A DNA stretch of 64,000 nucleotides from Amoebophrya sp. A120. Its lineage: Eukaryota; Protista; Dinoflagellata. Numbering within the stretch: position 1 is the stretch's first letter; every line of letters starts with the position of its first letter. The stretch covers positions 3,430,587 to 3,494,586 of the forward strand of contig CAJINV010000010.1 in the NCBI GenBank assembly GCA_905178155.1. The letters run 5' to 3'. Positions 12,301-41,500 of this stretch are shown one piece after another. Below the pieces are notes generated by a model. That model saw only the letters and a list, made by a program, of their open reading frames with translations, ran no database searches and had not been told where the DNA came from. The translations under genes and the position numbers were made by a program.

Positions 12301-15300
12301 TCCCGGCACCTCCCATGTTGTTCGCGTTGTTGACGTTCTGTCCATTATTGTGCTGCTGCTGATGGTTGCCGTTGACATTGTGCTGGTTCTGGTTCACGTT
12401 GGGCTGCTGGGTGTTGTTTCCGTTGTTCCCACCAGCAGTGTATCAAATGCAAAAGTGTCTGGGTCTGGAAGATTGGTAGGTTTGTCATGCAGGTTTTCCA
12501 TGACCCACGCGGTCTGCCATGCACGGCCTAGCATGGCAGGCTCTGTGAGATCTCTATCATGCCGTTCCTGCATGAGAAACTGCCTCTAAACTTGTTCAAA
12601 AGTGGACCTCTTTATTTCGTAATCATGCAACACACATTTTTCCACGATCCAGATGTAGCATGACAAGTTGCACTCTTCCAGACCCAGACATTTTTGCAAT
12701 TCATACAGTGTTCAGCCCGTTGTTTCCGCCCTGCTGCTGGTCCAAGTGCCGCACGGAGTTTCCGTTGTTGGCCCCCGAAACAGATCCTGTGCAAAAGCAT
12801 CGTACTCTTTAACTAATCGCAATCATGCAAGACAAATCTTCTTCCCAAGCGAAAGCAGCATGGTGAATTGCATCTGTCATGCTAAGGTCATTTGCCTTGC
12901 GTTTTCTACTAGTACGGTGCTTTTCCGCATGATAAAGTAGACCCATGCTGGCCCAGGGCCGCAGCCATGGCAGCGTTACTAGACGCGTGCTGACTCGACA
13001 GGTGGTGGTAGTTCGCGGCGGCCAACTATTACAGTGAAAAGTGCCCCCCACCCCTAAATTGCAAAAATTTGTGATGCGAAGTTTCCAAATGAAAACTTTT
13101 TGTCATGCATGAAAGGAGTATGAATCTTTCTGATGCAGAATGTAGGCGTGTATCGCATCGCTTGCATGACAAGTGCCGCTCTTGCTGGGGTCTTTTGCAA
13201 TACAAATTTTTGCTATTCACGATTGAAAACCCGTGATGCTGATACATGCAAGAGGGCGAATGTTTCATTTGGAAAGGTTTGCAATACAAATGCTCCCAAG
13301 TTCGGGGGTGGGGGCATTTTTCATCGTAATACCAACTGCCCGGCGTTCAGAGCCGCGGCGTTCGCGTTCAGAGCAGCTGCGTTGCGTTATAACAGTGCAC
13401 AACTCCCCCTCCCGCCCCTCATTTGTATTGCATGAACAGCAACACAAGCAACAGCAGAAAAGGGGCTTTCGCATGACAAAACTGCATGCGGATTCTAGTA
13501 CTATTTGACGTTCCAAAATTTGTCATGCTATCAGTTCCCACCATGCAAGGTGCGAATTTGGTATTTTGCATTACAAATGAGGGGGAGGGGGAGTTGTGCA
13601 CTCTCATATGCGTCCGTCCAGCGCCGCCGCGCCCGGGTTTCCCGCCATCATAGCCGCACAGCCGATCGCGGTGGCCTGCGTATCCTGTGCAAAAGTATCG
13701 CACTCGTAGTCATTGCATTTCTGCATTACAAACCTCTTTCTCAGGGTGAATCAGCATTAGAAATTAAATTTGTATATGCTAATTATTTCTAATGCACTTT
13801 ATACGTAGTACGATGCTTTTCCAATGCATACTGCGCATCGCGGAGCAGCTGGTTGATCTGCGATTCGGGCAGGGCGTTGCGCTGCTTCAAGATACAGGCC
13901 ACGTTCATCGGGTCGCCCTGCTGCGCGCAGGCCTTCATCAGGCAGGAGTAAACCGCGCGGGTGGGCAGACACTTCCAGACGAACGGCATTTGGCGGAAAA
14001 CCAAGTCGATGGCATCGTACAAGCGGTTCACCCCCGCGTACAGGCGCACCAGGATGGAAAAAGTGACGCAGGACGGAGCAATGTTGCACCGCTGCATGTC
14101 CGCGAAAACCATCAGACCTGATTTTTATAATAATGTGTAGTGAAACAGTGCTGTCAGACTTTGATTTCCTTTCACGCATCACAAGCCATTAAGTATTCTT
14201 TCTGCGTTCATCGGAACATATCATGCATGTTGACAGGTCGTTGTAGATAAACACAACAAGCTGAAAAAAAACACGACCCGTACCAGTATCAAAGTCTCCA
14301 ATCTTGGCGCAGCCATCCAACAGAGAGTTGAACATGATCTCATCGTATGGATTGCAAAAGTGTCTGGGTCTGGAAATTTGTGATGCTGGGTGGCGTATCA
14401 TGAGAAGACCACAAGTGCTGGCCCAGCATGACAAGTTTTTGAGCTTCTAGGTGTTGCCTATTCTGCATGACAAACTGCGTTTCTGCATGGCAGAAAAAGG
14501 CGGCTCTTGGGTAACCTGCATGACAGATTTAAGAGTCATGCCAGACAAGCATGACAAACATGCATTCTTCCAGACCCACACATTTTTGCATTTGATACAT
14601 CGACTGGCAAGCGGCGCATCCGGGCCTCGTTGGCGACAAGCAGGGCCTTGCGGAGGTTGCCTTCGTTGCAGAATCCCTTGACCAGGGTGGAGAAGGTGAT
14701 GATGTCCGGCATAATACCTTTATTCGATATAGTATTTTTGCTTCTATCTACGATGCGGATGCGGGACTACGCAAGACAAAAGTTGCTCAGCATGCATGCT
14801 GGATTGTCATGAATCAGAAGTGGAACAAGTAAGTAAGTAAGTAACTTAACTTTTTGATTTCATAATCCAAATCTTTGTGATGCAAAAGCCTGCATAACTA
14901 GACAACATCAGCATCATGGGTCTGTCATGATTTTCACATTACCACTCGCCTGCATCTCCTGTAGGACCATGGCGGCGACCTTCATGTTGTTGCACCGCAC
15001 AGCGACATCAATCAGGGAGTTGTAGGTCACAACGTTGCACGGCACCCGCTCCGACAGCATTTCCTATGGAAAGGAGAAGTCCCCCCGCCCCATAATGAAG
15101 CGGCACGTTTCTCAAAATTTGTGATGCTGATTTGTGGCCACAAATCCTGTCTCTCTTGCATGAGGGCAACCTCAGAGACTCCGCCACGATATGCAGGCGG
15201 TTTGCAATGCTGGAAGGCCTATAGGCTAGACCTCTAGCAAGCTAGGCCCCTACAACAAGAGGCCCCCCCTTAGGATTGCGATCTGCGTGCAGTCCTTTAC

Positions 15301-18300
15301 TGCAAGACAAATCTGATTTGTGTACTCAAATACAGCACCACAGATTTCCGTTTTGTCATGGGGAGGGGGGATTTTTCTTCTTGATATTTCCCGGTACAGC
15401 TTCATGGCACGGGCGAGGTCCTTGATCTTGGCGAAACCTGACAGAGTATGTCAACAGGTAGCTTTGCAACACAAATTTTTTCCAAAATTCTGTTTCGATG
15501 CTACGGCTCCGCATGATTGAAATTGTGATGCATGAAGACCGCTACAATCGTAAGTTATATATCAGTACCTTTGATGATGGTCGTGTACAGAACCGTGTTC
15601 TTGTGCAGGTTGGAGGACTTCATGTCTTCAAAAGTTTGGACGGCCATCTCCACGTGGTTGCACTTCACGCAGGCATCCAGCATGCAGCCGTAGGTGACCG
15701 CGTTCGGGTATCCCACAGAAAAAAGCAGGCAGGGCAGATTTGTAATGCAAAAATAAATACACAGAAAAATCTGTCATGGGCGGCCCCATAGCATGCTGTT
15801 TAGGATATGCTATGCAGACTTTTTTGTGTATTTGTTTTTGCATTACAAATGTGACCTGCCGGCTTTTTTCTGTGTGATATCGGGGGAATATCGGTCTTGC
15901 GCATCTCCTCCCACAACAGCAGAACTGAAAATTTGTATTGCAGAATCCGGATTTGAAAGAGTGGTCTCTGTTGCAGCTGGTGAAAGTGGAACAGCAACAG
16001 CATTTGATACTGAATAAACGGAACCAACGATCCTGGATGCTATTATTTGCAGAAGTTGAAAGCAATTTGTGACGCTGCAATGCAATTATGCAATGCAATA
16101 TCAAAACAACTCCTCTACCGCGATTGAAGTCCCGGAAGGTTCCGTAGGCCTTGATCAGGGTACCGTACGTGACCGCCCCCGGCCGGGCCGAGTACATGTG
16201 CCCACGCAGGTCCACCATCGTTTGTTCCATCGACTGGACGTCCCGGAGTATCAAATGCAAATATGTCTGAGTCTGGAAGAGTGTACTCAAACTTGTCATG
16301 CTGGTTTTCCATGATCCATGAGGTCTGGAATGCGGTACCTAGCATGAAAGACTCTGTGAGGTCTGTATCCTGCCTTTACTGCATGAGAAACTCCGTCCCA
16401 ACTTGGTCGAAAGTGGCCTGCTTTTGGCACTCATGCTCATGCAACACAGACTTCTGCATGATTCAGATTTAGCATGACAAGTTGCCACCTTCCAGACCCA
16501 GACGTATTTGCAGTTGATACGGAGGCGCGCGAAACCATCCAGGCACGTGTTGTACAGACCTTCTTCCGCGTCCTTGGACTTCCGGATATGCAATACAAAT
16601 CTCCCGTACATGTACAAGATGCATCACAAATTTCACCAATTTGGAGCGTGAAACTTATCATGCTAAACTAGGATCGAAGCCAAGTTTTGTCATGCAGAGA
16701 CCGCATTTGCACGTCGTGTACGGGAAATTTACTGTGGATACCGCAGGAATTTTTTCAACAGCGAAAACCCCCGGCGCAGTTTCGCGGTGCGGCTGTCGCC
16801 ATCGAGGGAGATTTTCACGAGCGCGGAGACGGACTGGTAGTCGATCTGGTAGTCGGAGGTCAGCATCTTGTCCACCCACGACCAGGCTTCGTCGACCTTC
16901 TTCCAGCGGATGGCGTGGTCCAGGTACTTTTGGTACCGCATGGCGTTCTCGTCCTGGACAACCGCGGGAGCTGCAGTGGCGGTGGTGTTCTGCTGTTGCT
17001 GCACGTTGGCCGGTTGCGCAGCCGGCTCCTCCTGCAGCTTGGTCTCGGAGGCAACTACATTTTCCACAGTTTGGTCCACCAGAGTCGGTTCCCCAGTATC
17101 AAATGCAAATGTGTTTGGGTTCTTTGGAAGAGTTGTGCCAATTAATTGTCACGCTTGGCCGACGATAAAAGAAAAGTCTGTCATGCTTGTTGCGCGGCTA
17201 CAACGTCACTTCGATTTGTCATGCAAAAAGACAATTTTTCATGCGATTAAGAACGCTACACATTGTAGCCGCTCAGATGAAAGAACTTGTCATGCGCGGC
17301 TCCGCAATACGGTCTGCCGTGTATCATTGGGACATTAGCATGACAACCTTCCAGAGGACCCAGACATATTGGATGCGGTGGATACCCCGCATCAAATGTA
17401 AAAATGTCTGGGTCTGGAAGAACGCGCGATTTGTCATGCAGCTTTTCCACGATCCATGAGGTCTGGAATGCAGGACGTAGCATGACAGATGCTGCGCGAT
17501 CTTTCTCATGCCTCTCCTGCATGAGAAACTGCCTCGCGACTTGGTCAAAACTGGACGACTTTTGGTAATCATGCAACACAGACTTTTGCATGCTTCAGAT
17601 TTAGCATGACAAGTTGCATTCTTCCAGACCCAGACATTTTTACATTTGATACCCCGTCGCCGTCAGCAAATCCGCCGCGCCGGAGTTCAGCAGGGCCGCA
17701 TTCGGATATGCTGTGCAAAAGTATCATAGTAATCTTCGCAGTCACGCATTACAAATCTCCTTCTTGAGGCGAACCCGCATCACAAGTTCCGGTTCTCATG
17801 CTGATAAAATTTGTCATGCGATTTACACTACAACGAGACAACTTTATTTGCAGCGCATATCGGACTGGTCATCACGATCTCGTTTTCTTTGTCACCGATA
17901 TGGGACTCTCAAACGTTACATTCTCAACTGTTACATGATTTGCCATGCAAATTTACCACCAAGATCGCCACGATTAAGCTGCTTCGCATAACAAATCTAC
18001 GAAGGGCTAAACAGCATCTAAATCTGTGCCAAATCTGTAATGCAAAAGGCGCAATCTTGCTCCTTTCACTTTTGCCGTTCTTGCATTACAAATTCGTGTA
18101 ACCGTTGAGAATGTAACATTAGAGAACGCCATAACCGACCGCGCCGGCTTCCATTCCCGACAGCATCTGCAGTTTCTTATGATATGCATTGCAAAAGTAT
18201 CGCACTCGTAGTAATTGCAGTCATGCATTACAAATCTCTTTCGTTAGGTAAATCCGCATTACAAATTTTATTTCTCATGCTGAGAAAATTTGTAATGCAT

Positions 18301-19659
18301 TTATACGAGTACGATACTTTTGCACAGGATATATGAGGGTGCACAACTCTCGCCCCTCCCTGTTCATGCTGTATGGCATGAACAGCAATACAAACACCAG
18401 CACACTTAGACCCTGTGCATGACAAATAACTCGAACCCCAAATGTTAAAAATTTGGAGTACTCAAGTACTGTTTGGGCAGCTTCAGAGCAATTTCTCATG
18501 CAAACAGTGCCACAAAGCAGCAACGAGATTGTGAACTTTGCATCACAATAAACACAAATCAGGGGGAGGGGGACGACTTGTGCACTCTCATATTTCTCAT
18601 TCTCGCAGCAGTCGTCCTCATTCGCATTCGCGATGTTTTTGTGGTCGGTGTCGGTGTCCGGGGTGGTGTGGGCCAGAGATTCGGTGGTTTCGGCCGACGC
18701 AGCAGAGCAGTATCAACTGTAAAAATGTCTGGGTCTGGAAGAATCCAACTTGTCATGCTGATTTTGAATTCTCAAAAAATCTGTATTGCATGAGCAGCAA
18801 AGAGAGTCCAAGTTTTGCTACACGGAAAGAGCATGTGTCAAGCGGTATAGGCATCAGGAAGCCGTCACAAAATCTGTGATGCTAGGGCATGCATCACAGA
18901 CATCAGGAGTCATGCAAAATGTGCATGACATACCTGGCAATCTTCCAGACCCAAACATTTTTACATTTGATAAGCAGGTTTGCTTCTCGATGAACTGGTT
19001 GCATTTCGTGATCGTGCCCGGCTTATGCATGGCAAAAGCATCGTACTAGTAGCAATGGCATCACAAATTTGCTGCTCAGCATGAGACGCCGAACTTGTCA
19101 TGCTGATTTAGCTCGAGAAGCAGATTTGTCATGCATGTACGACTAGGATAGTTTTGCACAGGATAGTGGTTTTTGGTCGGGGTGGTCGGGTGCAGATCCT
19201 GGTCTTGCTGCTCCATTTGCTCCACCTGCTTCTATCGCAAGAAAAAACTGTTTCACTGTGAACTTGTGATGCAGAAAATGCATCTGAGAAGTGTTTGTGT
19301 TGCTACACATGCAAGACAATGGATTTCTGGCTGTGTTTTCCCTCAGGAATCTCGCATGGCAAATTTCCTCTGTGATGTAGAGCAAACCTGTGATGCAAAA
19401 CCTGCAAAATCCTTACAGTGAAACATTTTTTTCTTACGATAGCTTCGCTACCTGGTGTATTAATTCTTGGAGTTCAGTTCCTAAGGAAGAAAGCAAATTC
19501 AGTTCCGCAAACTCTCTAGTCCCGTGGGAGAAGTGAGAGTGACAACCTCTAATGCATAATGACGCATGAGTAGAAACAAGAATTTGATACCGCAGTCTCC
19601 TCCACAGGCAGGGCGGCCACCGAGACGGCGGCCTCTTCCGGGACACCAGTTGCAGTCAT
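9386..19659 (-). CDS. Pentatricopeptide-repeat (PPR) protein with N/Q/G/A-rich C-terminal tail, about 31 introns
   Basis: Reconstructed PPR motifs PGAVTYGTLIKAYG, PNAVTYGCMLDACVK, TVLYTTIIKGFAK, NVVTYNSLIDVAVR, PDIITFSTLVKGFC, DEIMFNSLLDGCAK, PSCVTFSILVRLYA, PTRAVYSCLMKACAQ. About 22 TIR-type introns plus 9 GT-AG introns (9523-9655, 9758-9927, 10216-10441, 10507-10681, 14118-14283, 14718-14942, 15438-15568, 15925-16118, 19452-19590). Confidence 0.9.
9983..10185. mobile_element. Decayed introner
   Basis: TAT..ATA ends, weak TIR, direct repeat GACTG. Confidence 0.75.
10749..11058. mobile_element. Introner family I
   Basis: TIR TAT..AAAGGAAAAATCC..CCTCCC; direct repeat CCGCA. Confidence 0.9.
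11118..11374. mobile_element. Introner family A
   Basis: TIR with GTCTGGGTCTGGAA; direct repeat ACCCG. Confidence 0.92.
11554..11832. mobile_element. Introner family K
   Basis: Perfect TIR TATCCTGAGTAAAAACGTACCCACACCAGAGT; direct repeat TGCCA. Confidence 0.95.
11910..12060. mobile_element. Introner family B
   Basis: TIR; direct repeat TCCCG. Confidence 0.9.
12441..12705. mobile_element. Introner family A
   Basis: TIR; direct repeat CAGTG. Confidence 0.92.
12783..12934. mobile_element. Introner family B, eroded
   Basis: Left end GAT instead of TAT; flanks AAACA/AAGTA; frame restored (GST|SGANNG). Confidence 0.8.
13027..13331. mobile_element. Introner family J
   Basis: TIR TATTAC..TGAAAA.TGCCCCC; direct repeat CCAAC. 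Confidence 0.9.
13388..13608. mobile_element. Introner family F
   Basis: TIR GTGCACAACTCCCCCTCCC; direct repeat TGCGT. Confidence 0.93.
13681..13830. mobile_element. Introner family B
   Basis: TIR; direct repeat CTGCG. Confidence 0.92.
14346..14597. mobile_element. Introner family A (252-bp subfamily)
   Basis: Close copy of 2637-2888; direct repeat CATCG; splits PPR motif LPVD|EIMFNS. Confidence 0.94.
15065..15386. mobile_element. Introner family I
   Basis: TIR; direct repeat TTTCC. Confidence 0.9.
15709..15879. mobile_element. Introner family H (long hairpin)
   Basis: TIR of about 60 bp starting TATC.CACAGAAAAAAGC; direct repeat TCGGG. Confidence 0.93.
16249..16519. mobile_element. Introner family A
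   Basis: TIR; direct repeat CGGAG. Confidence 0.92.
16587..16740. mobile_element. Introner family G
   Basis: TIR core AAAT.TCCCGTACA; flanks CCGGA/CCGCA. Confidence 0.85.
17097..17651. mobile_element. Two family A introners in tandem at one target site (17097-17384 and 17390-17651)
   Basis: Three target copies CCCAG / CCCCG / CCCCG; the elements are separated by only 5 bp. Confidence 0.88.
17707..17859. mobile_element. Introner family B
   Basis: Direct repeat TCGGA. Confidence 0.87.
17899..18133. mobile_element. Introner family C-like
   Basis: TIR core GTTACATTCTCAAC.GTTACA; direct repeat ACCGA. Confidence 0.9.
18178..18592. mobile_element. Family F introner with a family B introner (18183-18331) nested in its terminus
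   Basis: Outer direct repeat TTTCT; inner direct repeat TATGA. Confidence 0.9.
18711..18972. mobile_element. Introner family A
   Basis: TIR; direct repeat AGCAG. Confidence 0.92.
19024..19165. mobile_element. Introner family B, direct repeat lost
   Basis: TIR present; flanks CGGCT/GTGGT; frame restored by removing element plus 5 nt. Confidence 0.8.
19233..19441. mobile_element. Introner family E
   Basis: Homologous to 757-974; direct repeat GCTTC. Confidence 0.92.
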
Positions 19660-19972
19660 CTTGCTCTTATGCAAAATAAAAACTTCCGGGTCATCGGGAT
19701 CATTCGTGACGCGAGTGATTTGAAGGACAGCGACAGCGCGATCTGTGATGCATACACGCGATCTGTGATGCATTACAAGGAAAAATCATTCGCGTTCCTT
19801 CTCCAAGAGAACCAGCACCCAGATTGATATTTTCATTTCCATACGTTATGGTCTGGTCTCCGATCTGCGATGTGTGCCTCTTAGCCGTTTTTGGTCAAGA
19901 GAATTCCCGTCCGTGCTGGTCTGTAGCTTGTCCAATTTCCTTCCAGAATCGGACTACACCACGCTCTTCCTC

Positions 19973-20186
19973 TATCCCACGAAAAAAGTGTTACAGTTAC
20001 ACATTTGTTGTCAATTCAGCAATACAAATTTTCTCTGCATGAGAGGGAGAACTTGTAATGCAGAAATCCTACGGGAAAACACCTAAGAAACGAGGCTTCT
20101 ATGCGTATCCGGCATGACAGAGCTCGTCTGTCTTGCTTGGCCTGCAATATTACAATGTGTAACTGTAACACTTTTTTCTTGCGATA
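19973..20186. mobile_element. Introner family D, probably in the PPR gene 5' UTR
   Basis: TIR core GAAAAAAGTGTTACAGTTACAC; direct repeat TCCTC. Confidence 0.88.
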
Positions 20187-22255
20187 TCCTCTGAAAAACA
20201 GAAGAAGAATCCTTCTCAGGAGAGAGGTATGGAAGTCGAAAAACTTTATTTCGGAGTGTCATGGAAGTTTGTCATGCAGACTGATCTTATCAGCGTAACT
20301 GCTCATGCAGTCTTCGCCTTGCAGGAGTGGATCCTCGGATGCGTGTATGCATTATGTTTTGCTTCATCTTGACATAATGATAATTCTGCATGACAAACAG
20401 TTACCTCCGAAAATAAATAGTGTTGCATTCTGGATAAGACAAGTCTGCTACTCTCTCTCTCGTTTCGTCCTTCTCTGTAATATCGTGCATTTAGCAAATT
20501 GGTTTTTTGATAATAAATAGCTGTTTCTCATGCATAGACGCAATGGGAGGGGGGTAAAATTGTCATGCATCGTCCAATACCTCCTCGTGCGATTGTTCTT
20601 GTAGAGTAATTAAGATAACTTTTTAGTCGAAGACAAAACAGGAGTAAAGTGTAAGCCAGTGGCTTTTCAAAGTGAATATTGTCATTATGTTTATTTTCAT
20701 TGTGTGCGAGTGCCGTAAATAGTGGGGGCACAACATGTTTTTTTTTGCTTGTTTGTCGTCAGATACTTTTTACTTCTACTTGATACAAACTGGATAAGTA
20801 CTTATTCATAGGCGTCGCTTAAGTACGTCTCGGAAATGCAAAAATGGTGAATGAAAATTGATCTTGTTCTCTTTAGGTTTGATAATATCAGCAGGCTGTC
20901 ACAAAAATCCTGTAGCAGTTCTGATGTTGAGTCTGTGCTTCGATATCTATGGGTATGGGGTATCGCACTTATGGTACCAAGTGTTAAGTGCAAAGCCAAA
21001 GGTAACTTGAAAATGTGACTACGGTCGTGAGAGGTCGTTCTTGCACTTGCAGGCTAATAGGATATGTGTAATCGTGTGGTCAGAAGTTTTTTATTAAGAC
21101 GGTGGTGGTGGTGCAGCTAAAGTAATGCACTATGTTTGGACCGTTCTTGTGCTAGGTTTTCACTTTTCGCTCTCTCTCGACAGGATAGTGTTCTACACAG
21201 GTTGAAGTTGATGCTGTGATGGCGCAATACCACACACCATGATTTTATTGTTGCGAGGGAGCTGCAACTACACAGTGAAATCAAACAAACACACAGGGAA
21301 CATCCGCGAAAAGAAACAACAAACGCGATAGGTTCTCCGTGGCGCAAGAACCTGAAGGTCCTCTGATGTCGGCCCTTGCTTGCTCGACAATGAGCGGGCG
21401 GACGTCCTCGCATGGGCGTCGTGAATAGTAAGTACGCCATGCAAAATCTTCATGCTGATAGACAGCAGCATGTGCAGTTGGCCCAGAGAGTGGTAGACCT
21501 ACTTGTGAAACAACGAAACCTCACAATGCGCCAGCGGCGTGGCAGACACAGGAACATGTCCAGAGACGAAAAAGAACAAACAGCACGGGGCTCGGTGGTC
21601 CGGTTCTTGTCATGGGTGTTTTGATATTTGAATTTGTGTGACTTTTGATGAATGTTTCTGAGGGCATGGTAGAAAATGGTCTTCTACTTGATGCATTTCA
21701 TTTTCATCCCACTTATTTCTATACGTGATTTTTCTACAGATGAGTTCTTGCGAATCACGTACGAGGTGCTTTGATTTATTTGATCTCTTTGACACTGTCA
21801 AAATCAAAAGGGAGAGAGTACTGTCCGTTGCGTAGCACTTACACGGTTTCCCGTCGGAACGGAAGTGTAATTCTGTTTCTTGCGGAACACTTCGCGGAAA
21901 GGATTCACGTGGCACCACGTAGGCCGGGTCTCTTCAGACGAAACACACGACCCGCGGGCTGCATGGTGAATTATCAACATGGAACAAAATACGTCCTCGA
22001 CCCATGTTGAATTATGTTGACGGATTTTCATCAATGTCGAGATAATTCGTCGCTGAAACTACATCATCGCTTGCCTGTGGCTGTGTCTGTGTGTCGCTAT
22101 ATGTTTCGCTAATTGTACTCACGTCATGAAAACGAGTTATTCCCGGTTGAGGTGCAAGAAGAAGTACGAGTCTATGCATCGTGACCCATCTTCATCTCGT
22201 CTTCACGCCTTCGGCACAAGATCAAAGAACTGAAACTAAACTAATTCCATGCTAC

Positions 22256-29100: not shown

Positions 29101-32100
29101 ACTTGCATTCATACGAATACGATACTTTTGCGCAGCATACCCCGGATTGCCCCGCTCGCTCGCCTCCTCGGGCGCCGCCCATTGGCAGAAGGACCGGTAC
29201 GCGTGAAACGGGTACTGGTTCAGCAACGTGGCCACCATGTAGAGTACCAGGCACAGGGTAAAAATTTTGCCCTCGGCCGCTTCCGGGTTTTGGCACACGC
29301 TGGACAGTATGGATTGTAAAAAAGTCTGGGTCCTCTCCTGGAAACTTGTGATGCTGGGTGGCGTATCATGAAGAGGCCACAAATGCTGGCTCAGCATGGC
29401 AAGTTTCTGAGCTTGCTTCTAGGTTTTGCCTATTCTGCATGACAAACTGCGTTTCTGCATGACAGCAAAATGGGGCTCTTGGGAAACGTGCATGACAGAT
29501 TTAAGAGTCATGCCAGACTAGCACGAGGAATCTCGCAATCTCCCAGACCCAGACATTTTTGCATTTGATAGACAGCGTGCCGCTCCTCAGAAACCCTTTA
29601 GGCAGCTGCACCTCCTCGACCGGTCTTTCCTCGAAGCCCGGTGGCATAAAAACTGAGGTGTCGTCTTGCTTCTCCACTCCATCTCCGACTCCTTGGCTTA
29701 CAACAACTTCGCCCAGCAGCGAGGTGCCTTTCATCGTACTAGCATCATCTTTTGCGGTTGTTGATGATGCACCACCTGACTCGGCCGTCTGAACAACTTC
29801 CAGGTGGTGACCAAAAGTAGACTCCGCACGAGGACCTCCTTCGCGTTTCTTCAAAAGATCCTCCAGTTTATTCGGCGCTTTCGTTCTCTTCTTTGCGCGG
29901 CGGCCTGGCTCCTCAGTTCTTGTTTCCTCGTCAACATCGCTTGCACCACTCTGCAGGGCGGAGTCCGGAGCGTTCATACTCAGCACTGGTAAATCTTCGT
30001 CATCGACATGCGGCTCGTTTGTCGATTCACCCAGAAAGACACTGCCTTGACTGAAGCTCCCCTCCAGTCTGCTGCTGGTGCTCGTCTCGATGTCGTCGTG
30101 ATCGACGTCCACTGCAGCCTCACTCCCCTCTCCTCGTCTGCTCGCCGTTTTGATGTTCATCATATTTGAAGAAAGGTGACCTTGACCTCCACCCCGCCTG
30201 CTCTTGCGCACCAGCAGTTTCCGCACGATTGTTTCGGGAAAAAACACGAGCTTCCAGGGAAGCAAAGTCCCGAAAACCACGGCTGTATAACCCGCGACCA
30301 AGAGCAAGAACCCCAGCACCCCGTCCGTCCGCGTGGAACCGACGAAGGCGGACTATGGGAGCGTCAGGCTTGAAGTCAACGAAGTTGTTGAAATGATTTG
30401 CCATGCATAAAATGCAAGGCATGAAGTGCCTGTCTTGCCGGGATGGCAAGTGAGGCAGATTGTGAGCCTATCTAGGGTTTGGAATAGAGCTGCTAAAGGA
30501 GCATGACAGAAGCAGTATTCTGTGCCCAAACAGCATGACAAATTGGATCCGGGTGCTCCGAAAATTTGTCATGCGCCGCTTGATAAGTGGGCTTCCAACT
30601 GGTATCGGCTTTATGCATGACAAACTATTTCAACTCTGACGATTTCGATCCTGACACCCCCATACGGACAGCAGAAACCGGATCAGGCTGAGCGTGACCG
30701 CCCCGCACCACCGCACTCGCTGCAGCGCGTCGTGGAAAAAGTCGTGGTGCTGGTCCAGTTTGTCCTTCAACTGCGCGTATGGATTGCAAAAATGTCTGGG
30801 TCTGGAAACTTGTAATGCTAAAAGTGAATGGCACACGCACTGCAATACGCAGCCACGCATGACAAATTTTTTGGCTCCTATCCCAAAGAAAAAAGCCGAC
30901 AGGTCAGAAAAAAAATAATTAAATAATAATTGTTATCGTCAACAATAAAAGCAAAACAAAACAACAAAAAAAATTGCCGCCATACCATGCGGATTAGCTT
31001 CAGGACAGATCAGCAATCCGCGCGAATCATGGTGGGGCTGCTATTGTCAACAATAAAAGCAAAACAAAACAACAAGAATAAACTGCCGCCATACCATTCG
31101 GATTAGCTTCAGGACAGATCAGCAACCCGCGCGAATCAGGGCGGGACGGCGATCGCCCGCTTTTTTTATTTTTGCGACGAATTTCGCCCATTCGCGCCAT
31201 ACCGTGCGGGCTGGGTTTCGTAGGGGGTTGCCGGTTTCGCCAATCCGCACGCCACGGCGCCCGCAGTCGGTTTTGCGGCTTTTTGCAGATTTTCCATGTT
31301 CGCGCCATAGCGTGCGGGCTGGCTATCTGGCGAAGCTGCCGGCTTCGCGAATCCGCACGGCACGGCGGTCGCAGTTAGTTTTTTAAATTTTGGCGAGTTT
31401 TCTTTGTTTCGCGCCATACCGTGCGGGCTGGGCTTCGTACGGGGTTGCCGGCTTCGCCAATCCGCACGGCACGGCGTCCGCCGTCGGTTTTGCGACTTTT
31501 TGCAAATTTTTGCTGTTCGCGCCATAGCGTGCGGGCTGGCTTTCTGGCGAAGCTGCCGGCTTCGCAAATCCGCATGGCGAGGCGGCCGCGGTTAGTTTTG
31601 TGAATTTTGGCGATTTTTTTCCTTTCGCGCCATACCGTGCGGGCTGGGCTTCATAAGAGGTCGCCGGCTTCGCCAATCCGCACGGCACGGCGCCCGCAGT
31701 CGGTTTTGGGACTTTTGGCGAATTTTCTTTGTTCGCGCCATACCGTGCTGCTGGCTTTCTGGCGAAGCTGCCGGCTTCGCGAATCCGCACGGCACGGCGG
31801 CCGCAATTAATTTTGTAAATTTTGTCGGGCTTGTTCCTTTCGCGCCATACCGTGCGGGCTGGCCTTCGGGCGAAGTTGCCGGCTTCGCGCATCCGCATGG
31901 AACGGCGGCCGCAATTAGTTTTGCGAATTTTGGCGAGTTTTTTGCCTTCACGCCATACCGTGCGGGCTGGCGGTCGCAAGAGGGTGCCGGCGTCGCGAAT
32001 CCGCACGGCACGGCGATCGCAATTATCGCTTCAAAATAGGAAGGCAGGAGCTTGGAAACCGTCGAAGGCTTTGCCAGCTTTGCGAAAGTTCCCGAATGTT

Positions 32101-35100
32101 CGGAGTCGCCGGATTCAGAGGCGGCGAGGCGTCAAACCCTCGCCAAGCTTTTCAACATTTGGGAATGCCAAAAATGCGACCCCCTCCTCTATCTGCGGAA
32201 GCTGGCGCACTTAAAGCAAATTGCTCCCGCTTCTGGTAATTTTTGCCGAGTTCGTCCGCGGATACTTTCGAAGGCTCGGAATCGCTTCAAAATAGGCAGG
32301 CAGGAGCCTGGGAGCTGTCGGAGGCTTTGCCAGCTTTGCGAATATTCCCGAATATTCGGAATCGCCGGAATCAGAGGCGGCGAGACGTCAAACCCTCGCC
32401 AAGTTTTTCAACGCTTGGGAATGCCAAAAATGCGACCCCCGCCTCTATCTGCGGAAACTGGCATCCTTAAAGTAAGTGGCTTCCTCTTCTTCTGGAAACT
32501 TTTGCCCGCCGAGTGTGTCCGCGGATCCTTTCGAATATTCGGAATCGCTTCAAAATAGGCAGGCAGGAGTTTGGAAATTGTCGAAGGTTTTGCCAGCTTT
32601 TCGAATGTTCTCGAATCCTCGGAATCGCCGGAATCAGAGGCGGCGAGGCTTCAAATCCTTGCCAAGTTTTTCAACAATTGGGAATGCCAAAAATGCGACC
32701 CCCGCCTCTATCTGCGGAGGCTGACATACTCAAAGCAAATTACTTCCTCTGCTGGGAATTTTTGCCGAGTTCGTCCGCGGATACTTTCGAATATTCGGAA
32801 TCGCTTCAAAATAGGCAGGCAGGAGTTTGGAAACTGTCGAAGGTTTTGCCAGCTTTTCGAATATTCTCGAATATTCGGAATCGCCGGAATCAGAGGCGGC
32901 GAGACTTCAAATCCTTGCCAAGTTTTTCAACAATTGGGAATGCCAAAAGTGCGACCCCCGCCTCTATCTGCGGAGGCTGACATACTCAAAGCAAATTACT
33001 TCCTCTGCTGGGAATTTTTGCCGAGTTCGTCCGCGGATACTTTCGAATATTCGGAATCGCTTCAAAATAGGCAGGCAGGAGTTTGGAAACTGTCGAAGGT
33101 TTTGCCAGCTTTTCGAATATTCTCGAATATTCGGAATCGCCGGAATCAGAGGCGGCGAGACTTCAAATCCTTGCCAAGTTTTTCAACAATTGGGAATGCC
33201 AAAAATGCGACCCCCGCCTCTATCTGCGGAGGCTGACATACTCAAAGCAAATTACTTCCTCTGCTGGGAATTTTTGCCGAGTTCGTCCGCGGATACTTTC
33301 GAATATTCGGAATCGCTTCAAAATAGGCAGGCAGGAGTTTGGAAACTGTCGAAGGTTTTGCCAGCTTTTCGAATATTCTCGAATATTCGGAATCGCCGGA
33401 ATCAGAGGCGGCGAGACTTCAAATCCTTGCCAAGTTTTTCAACAATTGGGAATGCCAAAAATGCGACCCCCGCCTCTATCTGCGGAGGCTGACATACTCA
33501 AAGCAAATTACTTCCTCTGCTGGGAATTTTTGCCGAGTTCGTCCGCGGATACTTTCGAATATTCGGAATCGCTTCAAAATAGGCAGGCAGGAGTTTGGAA
33601 ACTGTCGAAGGTTTTGCCAGCTTTTCGAATATTCTCGAATATTCGGAATCGCCGGAATCAGAGGCGGCGAGACTTCAAATCCTTGCCAAGTTTTTCAACA
33701 ATTGGGAATGCCAAAAATGCGACCCCCGCCTCTATCTGCGGAGGCTGACATACTCAAAGCAAATTACTTCCTCTGCTGGGAATTTTTGCCGAGTTCGTCC
33801 GCGGATACTTTCGAATATTCGGAATCGCTTCAAAATAGGCAGGCAGGAGTTTGGAAACTGTCGAAGGTTTTGCCAGCTTTTCGAATATTCTCGAATATTC
33901 GGAATCGCCGGAATCAGAGGCGGCGAGACTTCAAATCCTTGCCAAGTTTTTCAACAATTGGGAATGCCAAAAATGCGACCCCCGCCTCTATCTGCGGAGG
34001 CTGACATACTCAAAGCAAATTACTTCCTCTGCTGGGAATTTTTGCCGAGTTCGTCCGCGGATACTTTCGAATATTCGGAATCGCTTCAAAATAGGCAGGC
34101 AGGAGTTTGGAAACTGTCGAAGGTTTTGCCAGCTTTTCGAATATTCTCGAATATTCGGAATCGCCGGAATCAGAGGCGGCGAGACTTCAAATCCTTGCCA
34201 AGTTTTTCAACAATTGGGAATGCCAAAAATGCGACCCCCGCCTCTATCTGCGGAGGCTGACATACTCAAAGCAAATTACTTCCTCTGCTGGGAATTTTTG
34301 CCGAGTTCGTCCGCGGATACTTTCGAATATTCGGAATCGCTTCAAAATAGGCAGGCAGGAGTTTGGAAACTGTCGAAGGTTTTGCCAGCTTTTCGAATAT
34401 TCTCGAATATTCGGAATCGCCGGAATCAGAGGCGGCGAGACTTCAAATCCTTGCCAAGTTTTTCAACAATTGGGAATGCCAAAAATGCGACCCCCGCCTC
34501 TATCTGCGGAGGCTGACATACTCAAAGCAAATTACTTCCTCTGCTGGGAATTTTTGCCGAGTTCGTCCGCGGATACTTTCGAATATTCGGAATCGCTTCA
34601 AAATAGGCAGGCAGGAGTTTGGAAACTGTCGAAGGTTTTGCCAGCTTTTCGAATATTCTCGAATATTCGGAATCGCCGGAATCAGAGGCGGCGAGACTTC
34701 AAATCCTTGCCAAGTTTTTCAACAATTGGGAATGCCAAAAATGCGACCCCCGCCTCTATCTGCGGAGGCTGACATACTCAAAGCAAATTACTTCCTCTGC
34801 TGGGAATTTTTGCCGAGTTCGTCCGCGGATACTTTCGAATATTCGGAATCGCTTCAAAATAGGCAGGCAGGAGTTTGGAAACTGTCGAAGGTTTTGCCAG
34901 CTTTTCGAATATTCTCGAATATTCGGAATCGCCGGAATCAGAGGCGGCGAGACTTCAAATCCTTGCCAAGTTTTTCAACAATTGGGAATGCCAAAAATGC
35001 GACCCCCGCCTCTATCTGCGGAGGCTGACATACTCAAAGCAAATTACTTCCTCTGCTGGGAATTTTTGCCGAGTTCGTCCGCGGATACTTTCGAATATTC

Positions 35101-37763
35101 GGAATCGCTTCAAAATAGGCAGGCAGGAGTTTGGAAACTGTCGAAGGTTTTGCCAGCTTTTCGAATATTCTCGAATATTCGGAATCGCCGGAATCAGAGG
35201 CGGCGAGACTTCAAATCCTTGCCAAGTTTTTCAACAATTGGGAATGCCAAAAATGCGACCCCCGCCTCTATCTGCGGAGGCTGACATACTCAAAGCAAAT
35301 TACTTCCTCTGCTGGGAATTTTTGCCGAGTTCGTCCGCGGATACTTTCGAATATTCGGAATCGCTTCAAAATAGGCAGGCAGGAGTTTGGAAACTGTCGA
35401 AGGTTTTGCCAGCTTTTCGAATATTCTCGAATATTCGGAATCGCCGGAATCAGAGGCGGCGAGACTTCAAATCCTTGCCAAGTTTTTCAACAATTGGGAA
35501 TGCCAAAAATGCGCCCCCCGCCTCTATCTGCGGAGACTGACATACTCAAAGCAACTTCCTTCCTCTCCTGGAAATTTTTGCCGAGTTCGTCCGCGGATAC
35601 TTTCGAATATTCGGAATCGCCCGAATCAGAGGCGGCGAGGCTTCAAATCCTTGCCAAGTTTTCCAACGCTTGGGACTGCCAGAAATGGTATGGCGCGAAA
35701 GAAAAAACCCGCCAAAATTTACAAAACTAATTGCGGCCGCCGTGCCGCGCGGATTCGCGAAGCCGGCAGCTTCACCAGAAAGCCATCCCGCACGCTATGG
35801 CGCGAACAAAGAAAATCCGCCAAAAGTCGCAAAACCGACTGCGGGCGCCGTGCCGTGCGGATTGACGAAGCCGGCAAACTCTTACGAAGCCCAGCCCGCA
35901 TGGTGTGGCGCGAAAGGAAAAAACCCGCCAAAATTTACGAAAGTAATTGCGGCCGCCGTGCCGTGCGGATTTGCGAAGCCGGCAGCTTCGCCAGAAAGCC
36001 AGCCCGCGCGGTATGGCGCGAACAAAGGAAATTCGCCAAAAGCCGCAAAACCGACTGCCGGCGCCGTGCCGTGCGGATTGGCGAGGCCGGCAACCTCTTA
36101 CGAAGCCCGGCCCGCACGGTAAAGCGCAAAAGGAAAAACTCGCGAAAATTTACAAAAATAATTGCGGCCGCCGTGCCGTGCGGATTCGCGAAGCCGGCAG
36201 CGTCGCCAGAAAGCCAGCCCGCACGGTATGGCGCGAACGTAGGAAATTCGCCAAAAGTCGCAAAGCCGACTGCGGGCGCCGTGCCATGCGGTTTGGCGAA
36301 TCCGGCAAACTCTTACGAAGCCCAGCCCGCACGGTATGACGCGAAGCAAAAAAATTCGCCAAAATTTGCAAAACTAATTGCGACCGCCGTGCCGTGCGGA
36401 TTCGCGAAGCCGGCAGCTTCGCCAGAAAGCCAGCCCGAACGCTATGGCGCGAACGTAAAAAATTTGAAAAAAATCGCGAGACCGACTGCGGGCGCCGTGC
36501 CGTGCGGATTGGCGAAGCCGGCAGCCCCCTTCGAACCCCAGCCCGCACGGCATGGCGCGAATAAGCGAAATTCGCCACAAAAATAAAAAAGGCGGGCGAT
36601 CACCGTCCCGCCGTGACTCGCGCCGATTGCTGATCTGTCCTGAAGCTAATCCGCATGGTATGGCGGCAATTTTTTTTGTGGTTTTGTTTTGCTTTTATTG
36701 TTGACAATAACAATTATCATTTAATTATTTTTTTTCTGACCTGTCGGCTTTTTTCTTTGGGATAGCTCCCATGTCTTACGTATTCCGCATGGCAAACTGC
36801 GTTTTTCCATGACAGGTAAGCGGGCCTTTTCGTGCCTATGCAACACAGATTCTCGAGACATGCCAGACAAGCATGACAGACTTGCATTCTTCCAGAGCCA
36901 GACGCTTTTGCATTTGATAGCGAATTCTCGACCTGCAGATGGTGCAGGTTTTCCGCAAACTCCTCCATTTTCCGCTCCAAATACCGAACTCGGTCCTCGA
37001 GGTGTTGTGGTGGAGCAGGAGAATTTGTCCTAGAAGTAGAACGGGCTTCTACTCCATCACCGTGGTCCTCCGCTGGCAGGGTCGTCGCCCACCTGCTCGT
37101 CGGAAACGATGGATCTTCAACATGCGGCTCCGAGTAGAAGAAGTCGGGAGATGTTGAAGCGGAGTTGTCCTCCTGGCGCAGTGGTCCCGTTCCACTTCTC
37201 TGCAGGACCGAGGAGCTTCTAATGGAGCCAGCAACTACATGCGATTCCGGTGTCTCCTCAGAATAGAAGTACTCGACGTCCCCTTGATGATGATCTTCGT
37301 CGTGTGTTCCTTCTTTATCGCCACTTGAAGATGGCAAGTTGTCGAAACCCCCATTTTCGCCTACATCGAGGAAAACCAGAGAACTACTACCGGTAGTAGA
37401 GCCTCGTGCAGAATGACGATGCAGCTGGGGCGATGAATTCCTCTTGCTGCTCTCATGCACAACATCATCATGCTCAGCCACGTGAACAGCTGCCGTGGTG
37501 GTGGCTGCGGCGACGAGGAAAATGATCCCAGGCGTGAAGGAGATCATGGGCGTAGTAGTTGTTTTAGTTTTTCTCATGCTTGAAGAAACGTTGCGGGTAC
37601 TTACATTACGATTACACCAAATATCATCCTCCGGGCCGTTTGTACGACCTGCTCCGCTCCATTTGTAGCTCTTTGGTGGAAACAAAACCGTTGAAAATTC
37701 CTGTTCGACGTCGACCTTTCGCTTTCGTGACCTCGAGAAGAAAAAGTCGCGCCGGAACGGCAT
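26175..37763 (-). CDS. Multi-pass membrane protein of unknown family, 9 TIR introns (one is 6.1 kb); may extend to 25880
   Basis: Continuous frame VENS|QLKDKL...LLS|AFVGST...GTL|SSVCQN...NPG|LPKL...CL|RAIW...TDS|SSIDQ...NVP|LTYL...VV|DLFD...VVS|GVGLSF; several hydrophobic segments. Confidence 0.78.
27137..27399. mobile_element. Introner family A
   Basis: TIR; direct repeat AGACA. Confidence 0.92.
27539..27797. mobile_element. Introner family A
   Basis: TIR; direct repeat CCACC. Confidence 0.92.
27843..28108. mobile_element. Introner family A, close relative of 27539-27797
   Basis: TIR; flanks GGGCA/CGGCA. Confidence 0.9.
28287..28559. mobile_element. Introner family A
   Basis: TIR; flanks ACCAG/ACGAA. 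Confidence 0.87.
28624..28944. mobile_element. Introner family I
   Basis: TIR; direct repeat CGCAG. Confidence 0.92.
28988..29139. mobile_element. Introner family B
   Basis: TIR; direct repeat CCCCG. Confidence 0.92.
29308..29570. mobile_element. Introner family A
   Basis: TIR; direct repeat GACAG. Confidence 0.92.
30354..30664. mobile_element. Introner family L
   Basis: TIR TATGGG.G.GTCAGG; direct repeat CGGAC. Confidence 0.88.
31170..32025. repeat. Left-arm subrepeats of about 107 bp (alternating, about 215-bp dimer)
   Basis: Recurrent TTCGCGCCATACCGTGCGGGCTGG...AATCCGCACGGCACGGCG. Confidence 0.88.
32025..35690. repeat. 256-bp tandem satellite, about 14 copies
   Basis: Near-identical ORFs recur every 256 bp from 32571 to 35387; the edge copies are diverged. 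Confidence 0.96.
35690..36585. repeat. Right-arm subrepeats, inverted relative to the left arm
   Basis: Recurrent CGCCGTGCCGTGCGGATT...CCAGCCCGCACGGTATGGCGCGAA. Confidence 0.88.
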
Positions 37764-38535: not shown

Positions 38536-41500
38536 TCAATCGCTCTTGATCCTCGCGTAGATGTAGTGGAGAAACCTCGAGCAGCTCCAATAGGTTATCG
38601 CTCCCATCATCAAGAATATCCCGTACGCGATTACCAAGGAGTAGAGAAAGAAAAAGGATCCCTGCAGAAAGGAATCCATTAGCGACGCTTTGAAGTAGGA
38701 GATGCAGTAGAGGTAGAAAAACACCGCCAGGCTGCTCCCGGAATAGAAAGACCTCCACCACCACTTGTAATTCTCGGCATTCAAAGTCCAGTAGACGAAG
38801 AGCACGGACAGCAAGGCAGACACCATGATGGTCAGAACCAAAGTGAGGAGGAGTATCCCAAAAACTCGGTAGCTCGCGTGGCCTGTAACAATGCACAACT
38901 CCCCCTCCCCCTCATTTGTCATGCAAAATACCAAATTCACACCTTGCACGTAAGCACTGCTAGCATGACAAAGTTTGGAACGTCAAATAGTACTACAATC
39001 CGCATGCAGATTTGTCATGCGAAAGCCCATTTTCTGCTGTTGCTTGTGTTGCTGTTCATGCAACACAAATGAGGGGGAGGGGGAGTTGTGCCCTGTCATA
39101 TGGCCCCAAACGGAGTCAAAGATGTAGTGCAGTTCGGCGTACATGGAGAGGAAAGGGAGGCCGCCGCAGCAAATATACTGAATCAGCACGGACCGGGACC
39201 TTGTGAGGAGGGTTTCGATAAAGTTTTGATGTCTTGTTTATTTCGCGCTTTGATATGGGGTGTGGGTGCAACATCAACATGAGCATGACAAGACAAAAAT
39301 GAAATTTTTTGTGTAGTATCTACTTCGTAATAGGATCATCTTCGCAAGACGAGAAATTCACACGGAATGAAAAGCTGCTTCATATAGAAGTACCAAGTCT
39401 TCGCGTGCGGCGGTATGTGCCTCTCCAGCTTGTTGGTCTTGCAGGGAAAGTAGCTGGCAATTTCGCTGGTTTCGAAGTATTTCTTAATCACCACCTGTCT
39501 CCCCAGCACGCCCCCAACCACCGTCAGGGGGATGGTCACACAGATCCATACGAACAGCAGCAGCACTATCGTCGCGAAGGGAACGGCCACGGTGGAGGAG
39601 TAGAAGATCGCGATGGTGTTCAGCACGGACCAAATTACGAAACAGGGTAAAGCGAACATCAGACTGGTGAGTAAGATGTTTAAGGTCCACCTTTCGCCGT
39701 TCAACACTTGTATCCCACAGAAAAAGTAATAGAGACGCAAGTCAGATAATTTGTAATGCAAAAATAATCCGCAGAAAAATCTGTCATGGACGACCCCATA
39801 GCATGCTGTTTAGGGTACGCATTTTTCTGTGTATTCATTTTTGCATTACAAATCTGCCCTGTCTGCTTTTTTCTGGGGGATAACTTGGTACAAAGACCCG
39901 GACACGTAGCCCGCCACGACCGCGCTGCAAACGTAGAAAAACGTATCGCAGAAAAAAACTATGTGAGTGTAAGTCTGTGATGCAGAAAATGCAAAACTGC
40001 TACACTTGTCATGCTGAATGTGCGTCATGGGCTACTTTCATACGTGTCTCCACTACTACTACCTGCGCATGAGAGGTTTTCCCTGCAATGGAAAGCGAAT
40101 TTGTGAGGCTGCTCTTCCTACAAAGTTACACTTACACAGTTTTTATCCTGCATAAAACGCCATGGAGCTGATCACCGCGTTGTTGTGGTAGTGCCCGAAA
40201 CACCCGAAAAACACTACAGAGAGTGACATGATCAGAATTTGCGTGCCGGTTCCCACCATGGAGGCGAACACCGTGCGGAACTTCGGCGGGCGGAACACGT
40301 CGGCATGGAGGAGCTTCTATGCAGTGCAAAAGTATCGCACTCGTATAAATGCATTACAAATTTCCTCAGCGTGAGAAATAAAATTTGTAATGCGGACTTG
40401 CCTCAAGAAAAAGATTTGTAATGCAAGACATGCATTTATACGAGATACGATACTTTTGCAGAGGATAGCTTCCAGCCGGTATGGGACATAAACTCAAAGG
40501 TGTTGTTATCAATCGCAAATATGTCTGGGTCTGGAATATAATTCTGAGACTTGTCATGCACGTTTTGCATGAGCCATGATGTCGGTGATGCATGCCCTAG
40601 CATCACAGGCTTTTTGAGGGATTCTTGATGCCTATTCCGCATGACAAATGCCCTCTCCGCGTAGCAAAAATTAGATTTCTTTTGCTGCTCATGCAACACA
40701 GATTTTTTTGACATCCAAATGCAGCATCACAAGTTGCATTCTTCCAGACCCAGACATATTTATTGCACTTGATAGTTGTCTAAATCGTCGAAGTCAGAAA
40801 CCAAATCGTCCAACGTTTTGGCCTATCAAGTGCAAATATGTCTGGGTCTGGATGAGCAGAAGTGCAGATGTTTGTAATGCAGGTTTTGCATGACCCAGAG
40901 CGTCTGGCATGCAGGGACTAGCATCACCGGTTTTTCGCGGGGGGCTTCGTGATGCCCCCTACTCTGCATGAGAACAAGTCCGCTCTCATCATGGCCAAGA
41001 ATATGAGACATTAATTTTTGCTGTTCATACAAGACAAATTTTTGTGTGAATTGAAATGTGCATCACAAGTTGCAGCATTCCAGATCCAGACAAATTTGCA
41101 ATGCGTATAGCCTGGCCGCCGCCGTCCGCGTTGGCGTTGCCGATTACGTTGTACTATGGATTGCAAAAATGTCTGGGTCTGGAAGATTGCAACTTGTCAT
41201 GCTAAATCCGAATCATGCAAAAATCTGTGTTGCATGAGTGCCAAAAGCTGTCCACTTTCGACCAAGTTGGGAGGGAGCTTCCCATGCAGGATAGGCATGA
41301 AAGAGACCTCACAAACTCTGTCATGCTAGGTCCCGCATTCCGGACCTCAAGGGCAAGGTCACACTCTTCCAGATCCAGACATTTTTGCATTTCATATGTA
41401 CTGCGGCTTCTTACTCGTTGTCGTCTTGCTTTCGTTGCCCATGGCAGTGTTGAACCCCTCGACGAAGGCGTCGGCTAAGTCAGATTGGAGGTTACGAATC

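What the first reader, a model, noticed from the sequence alone, without database searches (positions are those of the whole stretch)
18173..18597. Introner nested 5 bp inside another introner's terminus, duplicating TATGA
Seen: TTTCT-TATGA-[family B 18183-18331]-TATGA-rest of family F-TTTCT. The insertion separates the outer TAT tip from its TIR. It shows a 5-bp duplication made in non-exonic DNA, so the repeats are true target-site duplications. Ending the intron at the inner ATA of B would add 5 nt and shift the frame, which suggests ordered (twintron-like) removal or precise end selection.
Basis: partly seen in the sequence, partly recalled or inferred. Interest (0 to 1): 0.72.

Follow-up and report, generated by a model that had tools for sequence, protein, structure and literature searches.

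The report
Transposon intron nested in another's tip
In a gene of a marine parasite-type genome, one small transposon-like intron sits in the very tip of another with a 5-base duplication, and the messenger RNA has lost both exactly, which likely means the inner one is cut out first by a still unknown splicing machinery that appears to cut at fixed distances from the element ends.

Summary
Real, and spliced precisely. Element B (18183-18331) sits at the end of element F with TATGA duplicated, inside a minus-strand PPR gene. RNA-like contigs of 4 of 4 runs join 18172 to 18593 (420 nt removed, frame kept); three runs of one sample have 39 nt on the short side, the second sample 25. One correction: the duplicated 5-mer is F's own last 5 bp, so F (18332-18592) is complete and the spare part is the outer 5-mer. 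Six spliced neighbours with unequal direct repeats share one cut register, N-TAT...ATA-NNNN (only one fixes it alone). Removing F first, or pairing F's start with B's end, never gives the observed junction. B-then-F is the best route (0.65); no intermediate was seen, and one long cut remains possible. Tip nesting is rare: 1 of 545 neighbour gaps. The elements fit the published Amoebophrya A120 introners; nested introners and fungal stwintrons are known elsewhere.

The parts
18593..18705 (-). Upstream exon of the host PPR gene; its last bases are the upstream copy of F's direct repeat (18593-18597)
   Evidence: RNA-like contigs, no other letters
18593..18597 (-). F target-site duplication, upstream copy (TTTCT on + strand); inferred donor cut between 18594 and 18593
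   Evidence: sequence; register inferred from neighbours
18332..18592 (-). Element F, complete 261-bp TAT...ATA introner, probably the older one (nearest relatives 67-69% identical)
18332..18336 (-). Inner copy of B's duplication, which is F's own terminal 5 bp; predicted to pair with F's other end
18183..18331 (-). Element B, 149-bp TAT...ATA introner of a high-copy family, probably the later insertion (nearest relative 94% identical)
18178..18182 (-). Outer copy of B's duplication: a spare 5-mer with no subterminal motif behind it
18173..18177 (-). F target-site duplication, downstream copy; inferred final acceptor cut between 18174 and 18173
   Evidence: sequence; junction 18172-18593 slides over 5 nt; register inferred
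18134..18172 (-). Downstream exon (39 nt as laid)
17097..17651 (-). Second composite in the same gene: E1 (17390-17651) and E2 (17097-17384) back to back around one shared 5-mer; a zero-length exon under the inferred register; 560 nt removed in the mRNA
19019..19170 (-). B-family intron 19024-19165 with diverged repeats; alone fixes the register at 1 nt before TAT and 4 nt after ATA
   Evidence: joint 19019-19167 with no slide in 4 of 4 runs, 47 nt on the short side
15300..21046 (-). Host gene as far as RNA contigs were laid: open frame across the junction, PPR repeats downstream
   Evidence: Pfam PF13041 E=5.8e-11 and PF01535 E=6.9e-08 on 15570-15704

Best explanation
Two MITE-like TAT...ATA introners lie head to tail in one intron of a PPR gene, the mRNA lacks both exactly, and they are likely removed in two consecutive cuts, inner B first and then F. 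DNA history (inferred): F inserted into the exon duplicating TTTCT; later B inserted by a staggered 5-bp cut whose target was exactly F's last 5 bp, which left F complete and a spare 5-mer beyond B. RNA step (register inferred from six neighbours): each intron runs from 1 nt before TAT to 4 nt after ATA whatever those bases are. B's cut then falls inside F's terminal ATA and inside the spare 5-mer, and rejoining them rebuilds F with its normal flank; F's cut restores the exon. Whether the order is enforced, or wrong-order transcripts are made and destroyed, is not known.
For: Shown: junction 18172-18593 in 4 of 4 RNA-like contig runs (depths 12.1, 27.4, 69, 10.8), with contig offsets leaving no letters between (table 8: 123 = 50+34+39); open frame across it. 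Shown: 16 of 16 RNA-bridged TAT...ATA units lose element plus 5 nt, and the 6 with unequal repeats all allow 1 nt before TAT, the only value they share. Computed: for every register 0-5, B-then-F gives the observed junction, while F-first and the F-start/B-end cut never do. Computed: forcing F's start to pair with the outer 5-mer costs about 11 kcal/mol, and the outer tip scores -10.2 on the terminus profile, below the 1st percentile (-5.7), against 21.8 for B and 5.6 for F's inner tip. Repeat identity is not needed for a correct cut: the repeats at 19024-19165 match at 2 of 5 positions. Analogy: in Euglena non-conventional introns, lengthening the 3' spacer by 3 nt nearly abolished the transcript (PMC12501133 section 8).
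Against: No B-less intermediate (a 154-nt skip) is among the 15 joints or the 15 of 18 shown; contigs drop rare forms, so this decides nothing. The register rests on one intron that fixes it alone, one more lower bound and four upper bounds. All RNA contigs come from one study and 2 samples, and X1 has only 25 nt on the short side. B's own three tip pairs are predicted unpaired (0.001-0.003), as are the tips of 18 of 54 window elements, so tip pairing is not required and the folding argument against the outer tip is weaker than it looks. F is transcribed before B, so something must delay F or waste some transcripts.
Confidence: 0.65

Rival explanations
1. One cut removes the whole 420 nt: F's donor is paired with the outermost ATA, or with a site 9 nt past B's ATA, and B is simply looped out.
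For: It gives the same mRNA; no intermediate was seen; tip pairing is not universal (36 of 54 above 0.5); fungal stwintrons are sometimes removed as one big intron (PMC12403724 passages).
Against: The outer tip lacks the subterminal motif and its pairing costs about 11 kcal/mol. The machinery would have to pass two better-scoring ends, and no +5 or F-only joint is listed.
Confidence: 0.2
2. The acceptor is chosen by matching the direct repeats: the machinery, or a repair-like ligation, picks the 3' site whose flank equals the 5' flank, which here is the outer TTTCT.
For: It explains the outer choice with no ordering; 393 of 526 element pairs have perfect repeats.
Against: Six introns with unequal repeats, one matching at 2 of 5, are cut with the same net loss and fit one register.
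Confidence: 0.08
3. The junctions are reverse-transcriptase template switches across hairpins flanked by direct repeats, or the elements are excised from DNA copies, and are not RNA splicing.
For: Hairpin plus short repeat is the classic setting for such artefacts (own knowledge); the runs are only guessed to be RNA; no DNA run was laid.
Against: One 1824-nt contig carries all joints of the gene together with GT-AG introns removed; the joined form is the main contig in 4 of 4 runs; the frame needs it; the 19019-19167 joint has no shared letters to switch on.
Confidence: 0.04
4. The insertion site is no accident: these elements are drawn to the ends of resident elements.
For: Two composites touch an element end in this one gene. 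Gaps of 0-7 nt hold 6 of 545 neighbour pairs against 2 in gaps of 8-22 (Poisson p=8e-4, bins chosen after seeing the data).
Against: With gaps 8-35 as baseline p=0.31. Gap 0 occurs only here, and the two other nestings are internal, 33 and about 96 nt from an end. No target-site consensus. This concerns the insertion only and can hold together with the best explanation.
Confidence: 0.15

Closest known systems
Introner elements of Amoebophrya sp. A120 (Farhat et al. 2021, PMC7789003; sections 10-11, passages and supplement legends read, figures not seen)
   Same: Inverted repeats that start with TAT, seven variable bases and a run of A; 3-5-nt direct repeats; non-GT-AG ends; repeated families; genes on one strand.
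   Different: 'Nested' occurs 0 times in the main text or the supplement text. The paper calls the splice position relative to the hairpin variable or unknown; here six introns fit one register. [quoted passage not shown]
Fungal spliceosomal twin introns, stwintrons (PMC12403724, passages read)
   Same: An internal intron sits in a terminal element of an external one and has to leave first; the one-step mis-cut leaves extra bases.
   Different: Stwintrons are GT-AG U2 introns with a detected intermediate. These introns have no GT-AG, arose with a 5-bp duplication, and the duplication leaves a complete-looking but booby-trapped outer intron.
Nested or merged introner elements of Micromonas pusilla (PMC3879977, passages read)
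   Same: Introners found inside or merged with other introners.
   Different: That passage argues for RNA-level mobility of GT/GC-AG introns; it mentions no duplication in the nested cases and no order of removal (supplementary figures not seen).
Euglena non-conventional introns, N3-CAG...CTG-N5 (PMC12501133, sections 5 and 8 read)
   Same: Paired ends, inverted triplet motif, fixed spacers longer at the 3' side, direct repeats that hide the cut, register found from non-slidable introns, machinery unknown, MITE origin proposed.
   Different: Other motif (TAT/ATA), other spacers (1 and 4, inferred), unrelated lineage; 'nested' and 'Amoebophrya' occur 0 times in that paper.
Zero-nucleotide recursive splicing in Drosophila (10.1101/006163, search listing only)
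   Same: The pair at 17097-17651 would have one intron's acceptor at the same bond as the next one's donor.
   Different: GT-AG ratchet points in long introns; here one-step and two-step removal give the same product, so nothing is shown.

Membership tests
Amoebophrya A120-type introner element | 8-20-nt inverted repeats at the two ends | tested here: met
   B 18 of 22, F 17 of 22 complementary
Amoebophrya A120-type introner element | 3-5-nt direct repeats at the borders | tested here: met
   TATGA and TTTCT, both exact
Amoebophrya A120-type introner element | End motif TAT, seven variable bases, at least three A (element B) | tested here: met
   sequence; same profile over 410 elements
Amoebophrya A120-type introner element | End motif TAT, seven variable bases, at least three A (element F) | tested here: not met
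   F and its three window relatives read TAT, eight bases, then ACAA (one copy has a changed tip): a variant family
Amoebophrya A120-type introner element | Repeated family | tested here: met
   B: 78 of 542 library elements at 70% cover or more; F: 2 of 542, plus 3 window copies by alignment
Amoebophrya A120-type introner element | Removed from the mRNA without GT-AG ends | tested here: met
   no AG or G bias at the inferred cuts (AG in 6 of 56, G in 20 of 56)
Amoebophrya A120-type introner element | Host is Amoebophrya strain A120 | not testable with these tools
   no genome held; run names are coded; the assignment rests on the motif only
MITE (non-autonomous TIR DNA transposon) | Short, inverted ends, fixed-length duplication, many copies | tested here: met
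   median 260 bp; exact 5-bp repeat in 393 of 526; duplications also in non-exon targets
MITE (non-autonomous TIR DNA transposon) | Cognate transposase and empty-site allele | not tested
   no protein or allele search was run; the 5.9-kb long member is mostly tandem arrays
Stwintron | Both introns are canonical U2 GT-AG introns | tested here: not met
   inferred ends are N-TAT and ATA-NNNN
Stwintron | Internal intron interrupts an element needed to excise the external one | tested here: inconclusive
   holds if the cuts are measured from the element ends; the required elements are not known
Stwintron | Intermediate lacking only the internal intron | tested here: inconclusive
   not listed in contigs, which drop rare forms; the three raw-read runs did not cover these exons
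Euglenid non-conventional intron | N3-CAG...CTG-N5 signature | tested here: not met
   ends are TAT/ATA with inferred spacers 1 and 4
Euglenid non-conventional intron | RNA stem that brings the ends together | tested here: met
   predicted only: subterminal stem above 0.5 in 51 of 54 window elements

The most novel reading that the evidence does not exclude
These introns are cut by a non-canonical machinery that measures from the TAT and ATA ends (N-TAT...ATA-NNNN) without reading the cut bases, and that holds back an already complete upstream intron until the downstream one is gone: an obligate-order twin intron of a new splicing code, born from one transposition event, with zero- to two-base exons as a second test case.
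Probability: 0.35. Interest if true: 0.75.

Novelty: new variant of a known kind. Interest (0 to 1): 0.55.

Why it matters
How Amoebophrya removes tens of thousands of introns without GT-AG ends, with no U1 snRNA detected, is an open question in the papers read (PMC7789003, PMC11282704). This locus gives two handles. Unequal direct repeats read out where the cut lies, which the source paper left open; the 1/4 register can be tested on thousands of introns with existing data. The nested pair offers three candidate ends within 160 nt and the mRNA shows only one, so one RT-PCR or long-read run separates ordered splicing from long-range end choice. Duplications made in non-exon DNA also argue for DNA-level staggered-cut insertion and against reverse splicing. 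The nesting itself looks like a rare accident, and introners, nested introners and twin introns are each known.

Tried and rejected
Own genome: none held, so no genome-wide count. Raw RNA runs X9-X11: reads fell only on repeat pieces, none on this gene's exons, so no read-level test. No run was on record as an RNA holder; X1-X4 are guessed RNA. Intermediates: none listed; not evidence of absence. End-targeting: not supported on the broader baseline. Hidden GT-AG or G bias at the cuts: not found in 56 window elements. Target-site consensus: none. Frame test of very short exons in related loci: of 6 close pairs, 2 could not be paired, L049 was ambiguous, L073 favoured keeping its 2-nt exon, and both L030 pairs favoured keeping theirs. 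My automatic nesting search is conservative: it missed the outer partners of 30879-36764 and 17390-17651, which I found by eye, and four further rows (L008, L032, L050, L053) were dropped as poor outer ends. A HlyE hit on one exon (E=0.011, 15.5 bits, cutoff 25) was rejected as noise. Roy et al. 2023 (PubMed 36543167) is not held and may bear on novelty.
Full report
Observation. The sequence is as described: TTTCT (18173-77), TATGA (18178-82), a 149-bp TAT...ATA element B (18183-18331), TATGA (18332-36), the rest of element F to 18592, and TTTCT (18593-97). Removing B and one 5-mer in silico yields a 261-bp element with TTTCT on both sides that aligns over its length with three other F copies in the window at 64-67%. 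B matches eight other window copies at 77-90%. A 71-nt contig of run X1 reads across exon, TTTCT, TATGA and the start of B without a mismatch. It may be unspliced RNA or DNA; either way it supports the assembly at that end.

Setting. The window is crowded with such elements (56 paired automatically, and about ten more by eye). Their ends fit the motif given for Amoebophrya A120 introners: TAT, seven variable bases, a run of A (PMC7789003 section 11). The organism is inferred from that motif only; no genome is held. The host gene is on the minus strand and carries PPR repeats (PF13041, E=5.8e-11). A pattern scan of metagenome contigs gave 126 loci (695 kb, some overlapping) with the same families; with the window they hold 578 elements. 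An exact 5-bp repeat flanks 393 of 526 terminus pairs against 1.4 after shuffling, and other lengths are at or near chance (partly circular).

The duplicated 5-mer is exactly F's last five bases. In the RNA the order is: exon, complete F, complete B, spare 5-mer, exon. F's start is predicted to pair with the inner copy at 0.99-1.0 and with the outer copy at 0.0; forcing the outer pairing costs about 11 kcal/mol. F's nearest relatives are 67-69% identical and B's 94%, which fits F first and B later, although the library is enriched for another family and small for F.

RNA evidence. Contigs of X1-X4 (guessed RNA, 2 samples, 1 study) all join 18172 to 18593, skipping 420 nt, at depths 12.1, 27.4, 10.8 and 69. 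X2, X3 and X4 (one sample) have 39 nt on the short side; X1 has 25, under the tool's 31-nt bar. Offsets in the 1824-nt X3 contig leave no room for extra letters. The same contigs lack GT-AG introns, so they are spliced transcripts. The exons as laid give one open frame across the junction, and a +5 form stops 22 codons later. No +5, B-only or F-only joint is among the 15 joints or the 15 of 18 shown; contigs drop rare forms. The raw-read runs X9-X11 did not cover these exons. No DNA run was laid.

Where the cuts lie. All 16 TAT...ATA units bridged by these contigs (the composite and the back-to-back pair each counted once; one has only 22 nt on its short side) lose the element plus 5 nt. Ten have perfect repeats and slide. 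Six have unequal repeats and limit the number of intron bases before TAT: 0-3 (16587, 17097, 20228), 0-2 (28287), 1-5 (27843) and exactly 1 (19024, in 4 of 4 runs). The only shared value is 1, giving N-TAT...ATA-NNNN. I predicted the result at 27843 and 28287 before laying. The cut bases show no GT-AG bias (AG in 6 of 56, G in 20 of 56). [quoted passage not shown] The pattern parallels Euglena's N3-CAG...CTG-N5 rule, found from non-slidable introns and tested by editing (PMC12501133). An unchecked scan note on another protist (e1-7134071) reports a fixed cut two bases past a motif; I did not test it.

Mechanism. For each register from 0 to 5, B-then-F gives the observed junction. F-first destroys B's start (registers 0-4) or changes the exon sequence (register 5), and a single cut from F's start to B's end leaves 5 extra bases. 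What remains is B-then-F, or one long cut at the spare 5-mer. The spare tip lacks the subterminal motif (score -10.2, below the 1st percentile) and its pairing is costly. Against this, tip pairing is absent in the prediction for B and for 18 of 54 window elements, so the folding argument is moderate. I put ordered removal at 0.65 and one long cut at 0.2. F is transcribed first and looks complete, so the order is either enforced or some transcripts are lost; the data do not say which. The unspliced X1 branch at B's 3' end (depth 2.29 against 12.1) is a hint of slower removal there, no more.

Insertion. Duplications in non-exon targets are seen three times: here, at 30879-36764 inside 30778-36919 (GCTCC; the outer element returns to 251 bp and aligns with its family), and in L007 (GAAAT). 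This supports staggered-cut DNA insertion; reverse splicing would carry old flanks and not copy the new site (inference). Tip nesting is rare: gap 0 occurs in 1 of 545 neighbour pairs, this one. Gaps of 5-7 nt occur 5 times, 8-22 nt twice, and 36-60 nt 118 times. The small cluster is significant only on the narrow baseline (p=8e-4 against p=0.31), and short-read contigs may lose such composites. I treat the site as an accident that splicing tolerated.

Second case in the gene. At 17097-17651 two elements share one 5-mer, and 560 nt are removed (X3 only). Under the register the first intron's acceptor and the second's donor are the same bond. One-step and two-step removal give the same product there.

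What is known. A120 introners are published, and a review already reads their repeats as target-site duplications (PMC11282704 passages). Nested or merged introners are reported in Micromonas (PMC3879977 passages). Obligate inside-first removal defines fungal stwintrons (PMC12403724 passages), but those are GT-AG introns, so this works like one and is not one. I found no report of nesting, order of removal or a fixed register for these introns in seven searches. 'Nested' occurs 0 times in PMC7789003 text and supplement text, PMC12130899, PMC9860276, PMC11282704 and PMC12005148, all read as passages or sections. Roy et al. 2023 is not held, and figures and supplements not seen may bear on this.

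Verdict. A real, RNA-supported, rare nested pair in a known introner system; a new variant of a known kind. Its value is as a natural test of an unknown splicing mechanism, together with the 1/4 register. Interest 0.55.

Noticed in passing
window 30778-36919: A 251-bp introner holds a 5.9-kb nested element (30879-36764, 22 of 22 complementary ends, GCTCC duplicated) made mostly of tandem arrays: 14 copies of a 256-bp unit at 97% matches between 108/216-bp arrays. Removing the whole 6.1 kb joins a predicted 990-codon frame; splicing was not checked.
   Followed up: partly
window 17097-17651: Two introners back to back around one shared 5-mer; zero-length exon under the inferred register; one end reads ATG in place of ATA and the pair is still removed exactly.
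   Followed up: yes
window 19442-19451: A micro-exon of about 9-10 nt lies between a GT-AG intron (19452-19590) and an introner (19233-19441); present in 4 of 4 runs.
   Followed up: partly
window 19452-19590: This GT-AG intron starts with G followed by TATCAAAT, like the commonest introner end: possibly a decayed introner that became canonical.
   Followed up: no
L060 3422-3428; L049 19631-19638; L050 14676-14683; L073 488-495: Neighbouring introners 6-7 nt apart, which would leave exons of 1-2 nt; the frame in L073 favours keeping the 2 nt.
   Followed up: partly
window and L001-L126: Neighbouring elements are rarely closer than about 35 nt (22 of 545 gaps under 36 nt, against about 4.7 per position at 36-60): a minimum exon size or an insertion exclusion zone.
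   Followed up: partly
L007 1603-2034: A 111-bp TAT...ATA element nested 33 nt inside another, with GAAAT duplicated.
   Followed up: yes
window 19973-20186 and 20228-20436: Two introners upstream of the first in-frame Met are removed with the same net loss, so the rule seems to hold in a likely 5' untranslated region.
   Followed up: partly
window 15775-15807, 17565-17651, 18183-18204: Raw RNA runs X9-X11 have about 50-600 reads on these introner pieces with foreign flanks: other copies of these families are abundant in RNA, retained or in unspliced transcripts.
   Followed up: no
window 38800-45200: A gene with 15 introners whose predicted product looks like a TM9SF/EMP70 protein (name recalled, not searched); four have unequal repeats (40824, 42290, 42485, 44328) and would test the register.
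   Followed up: no
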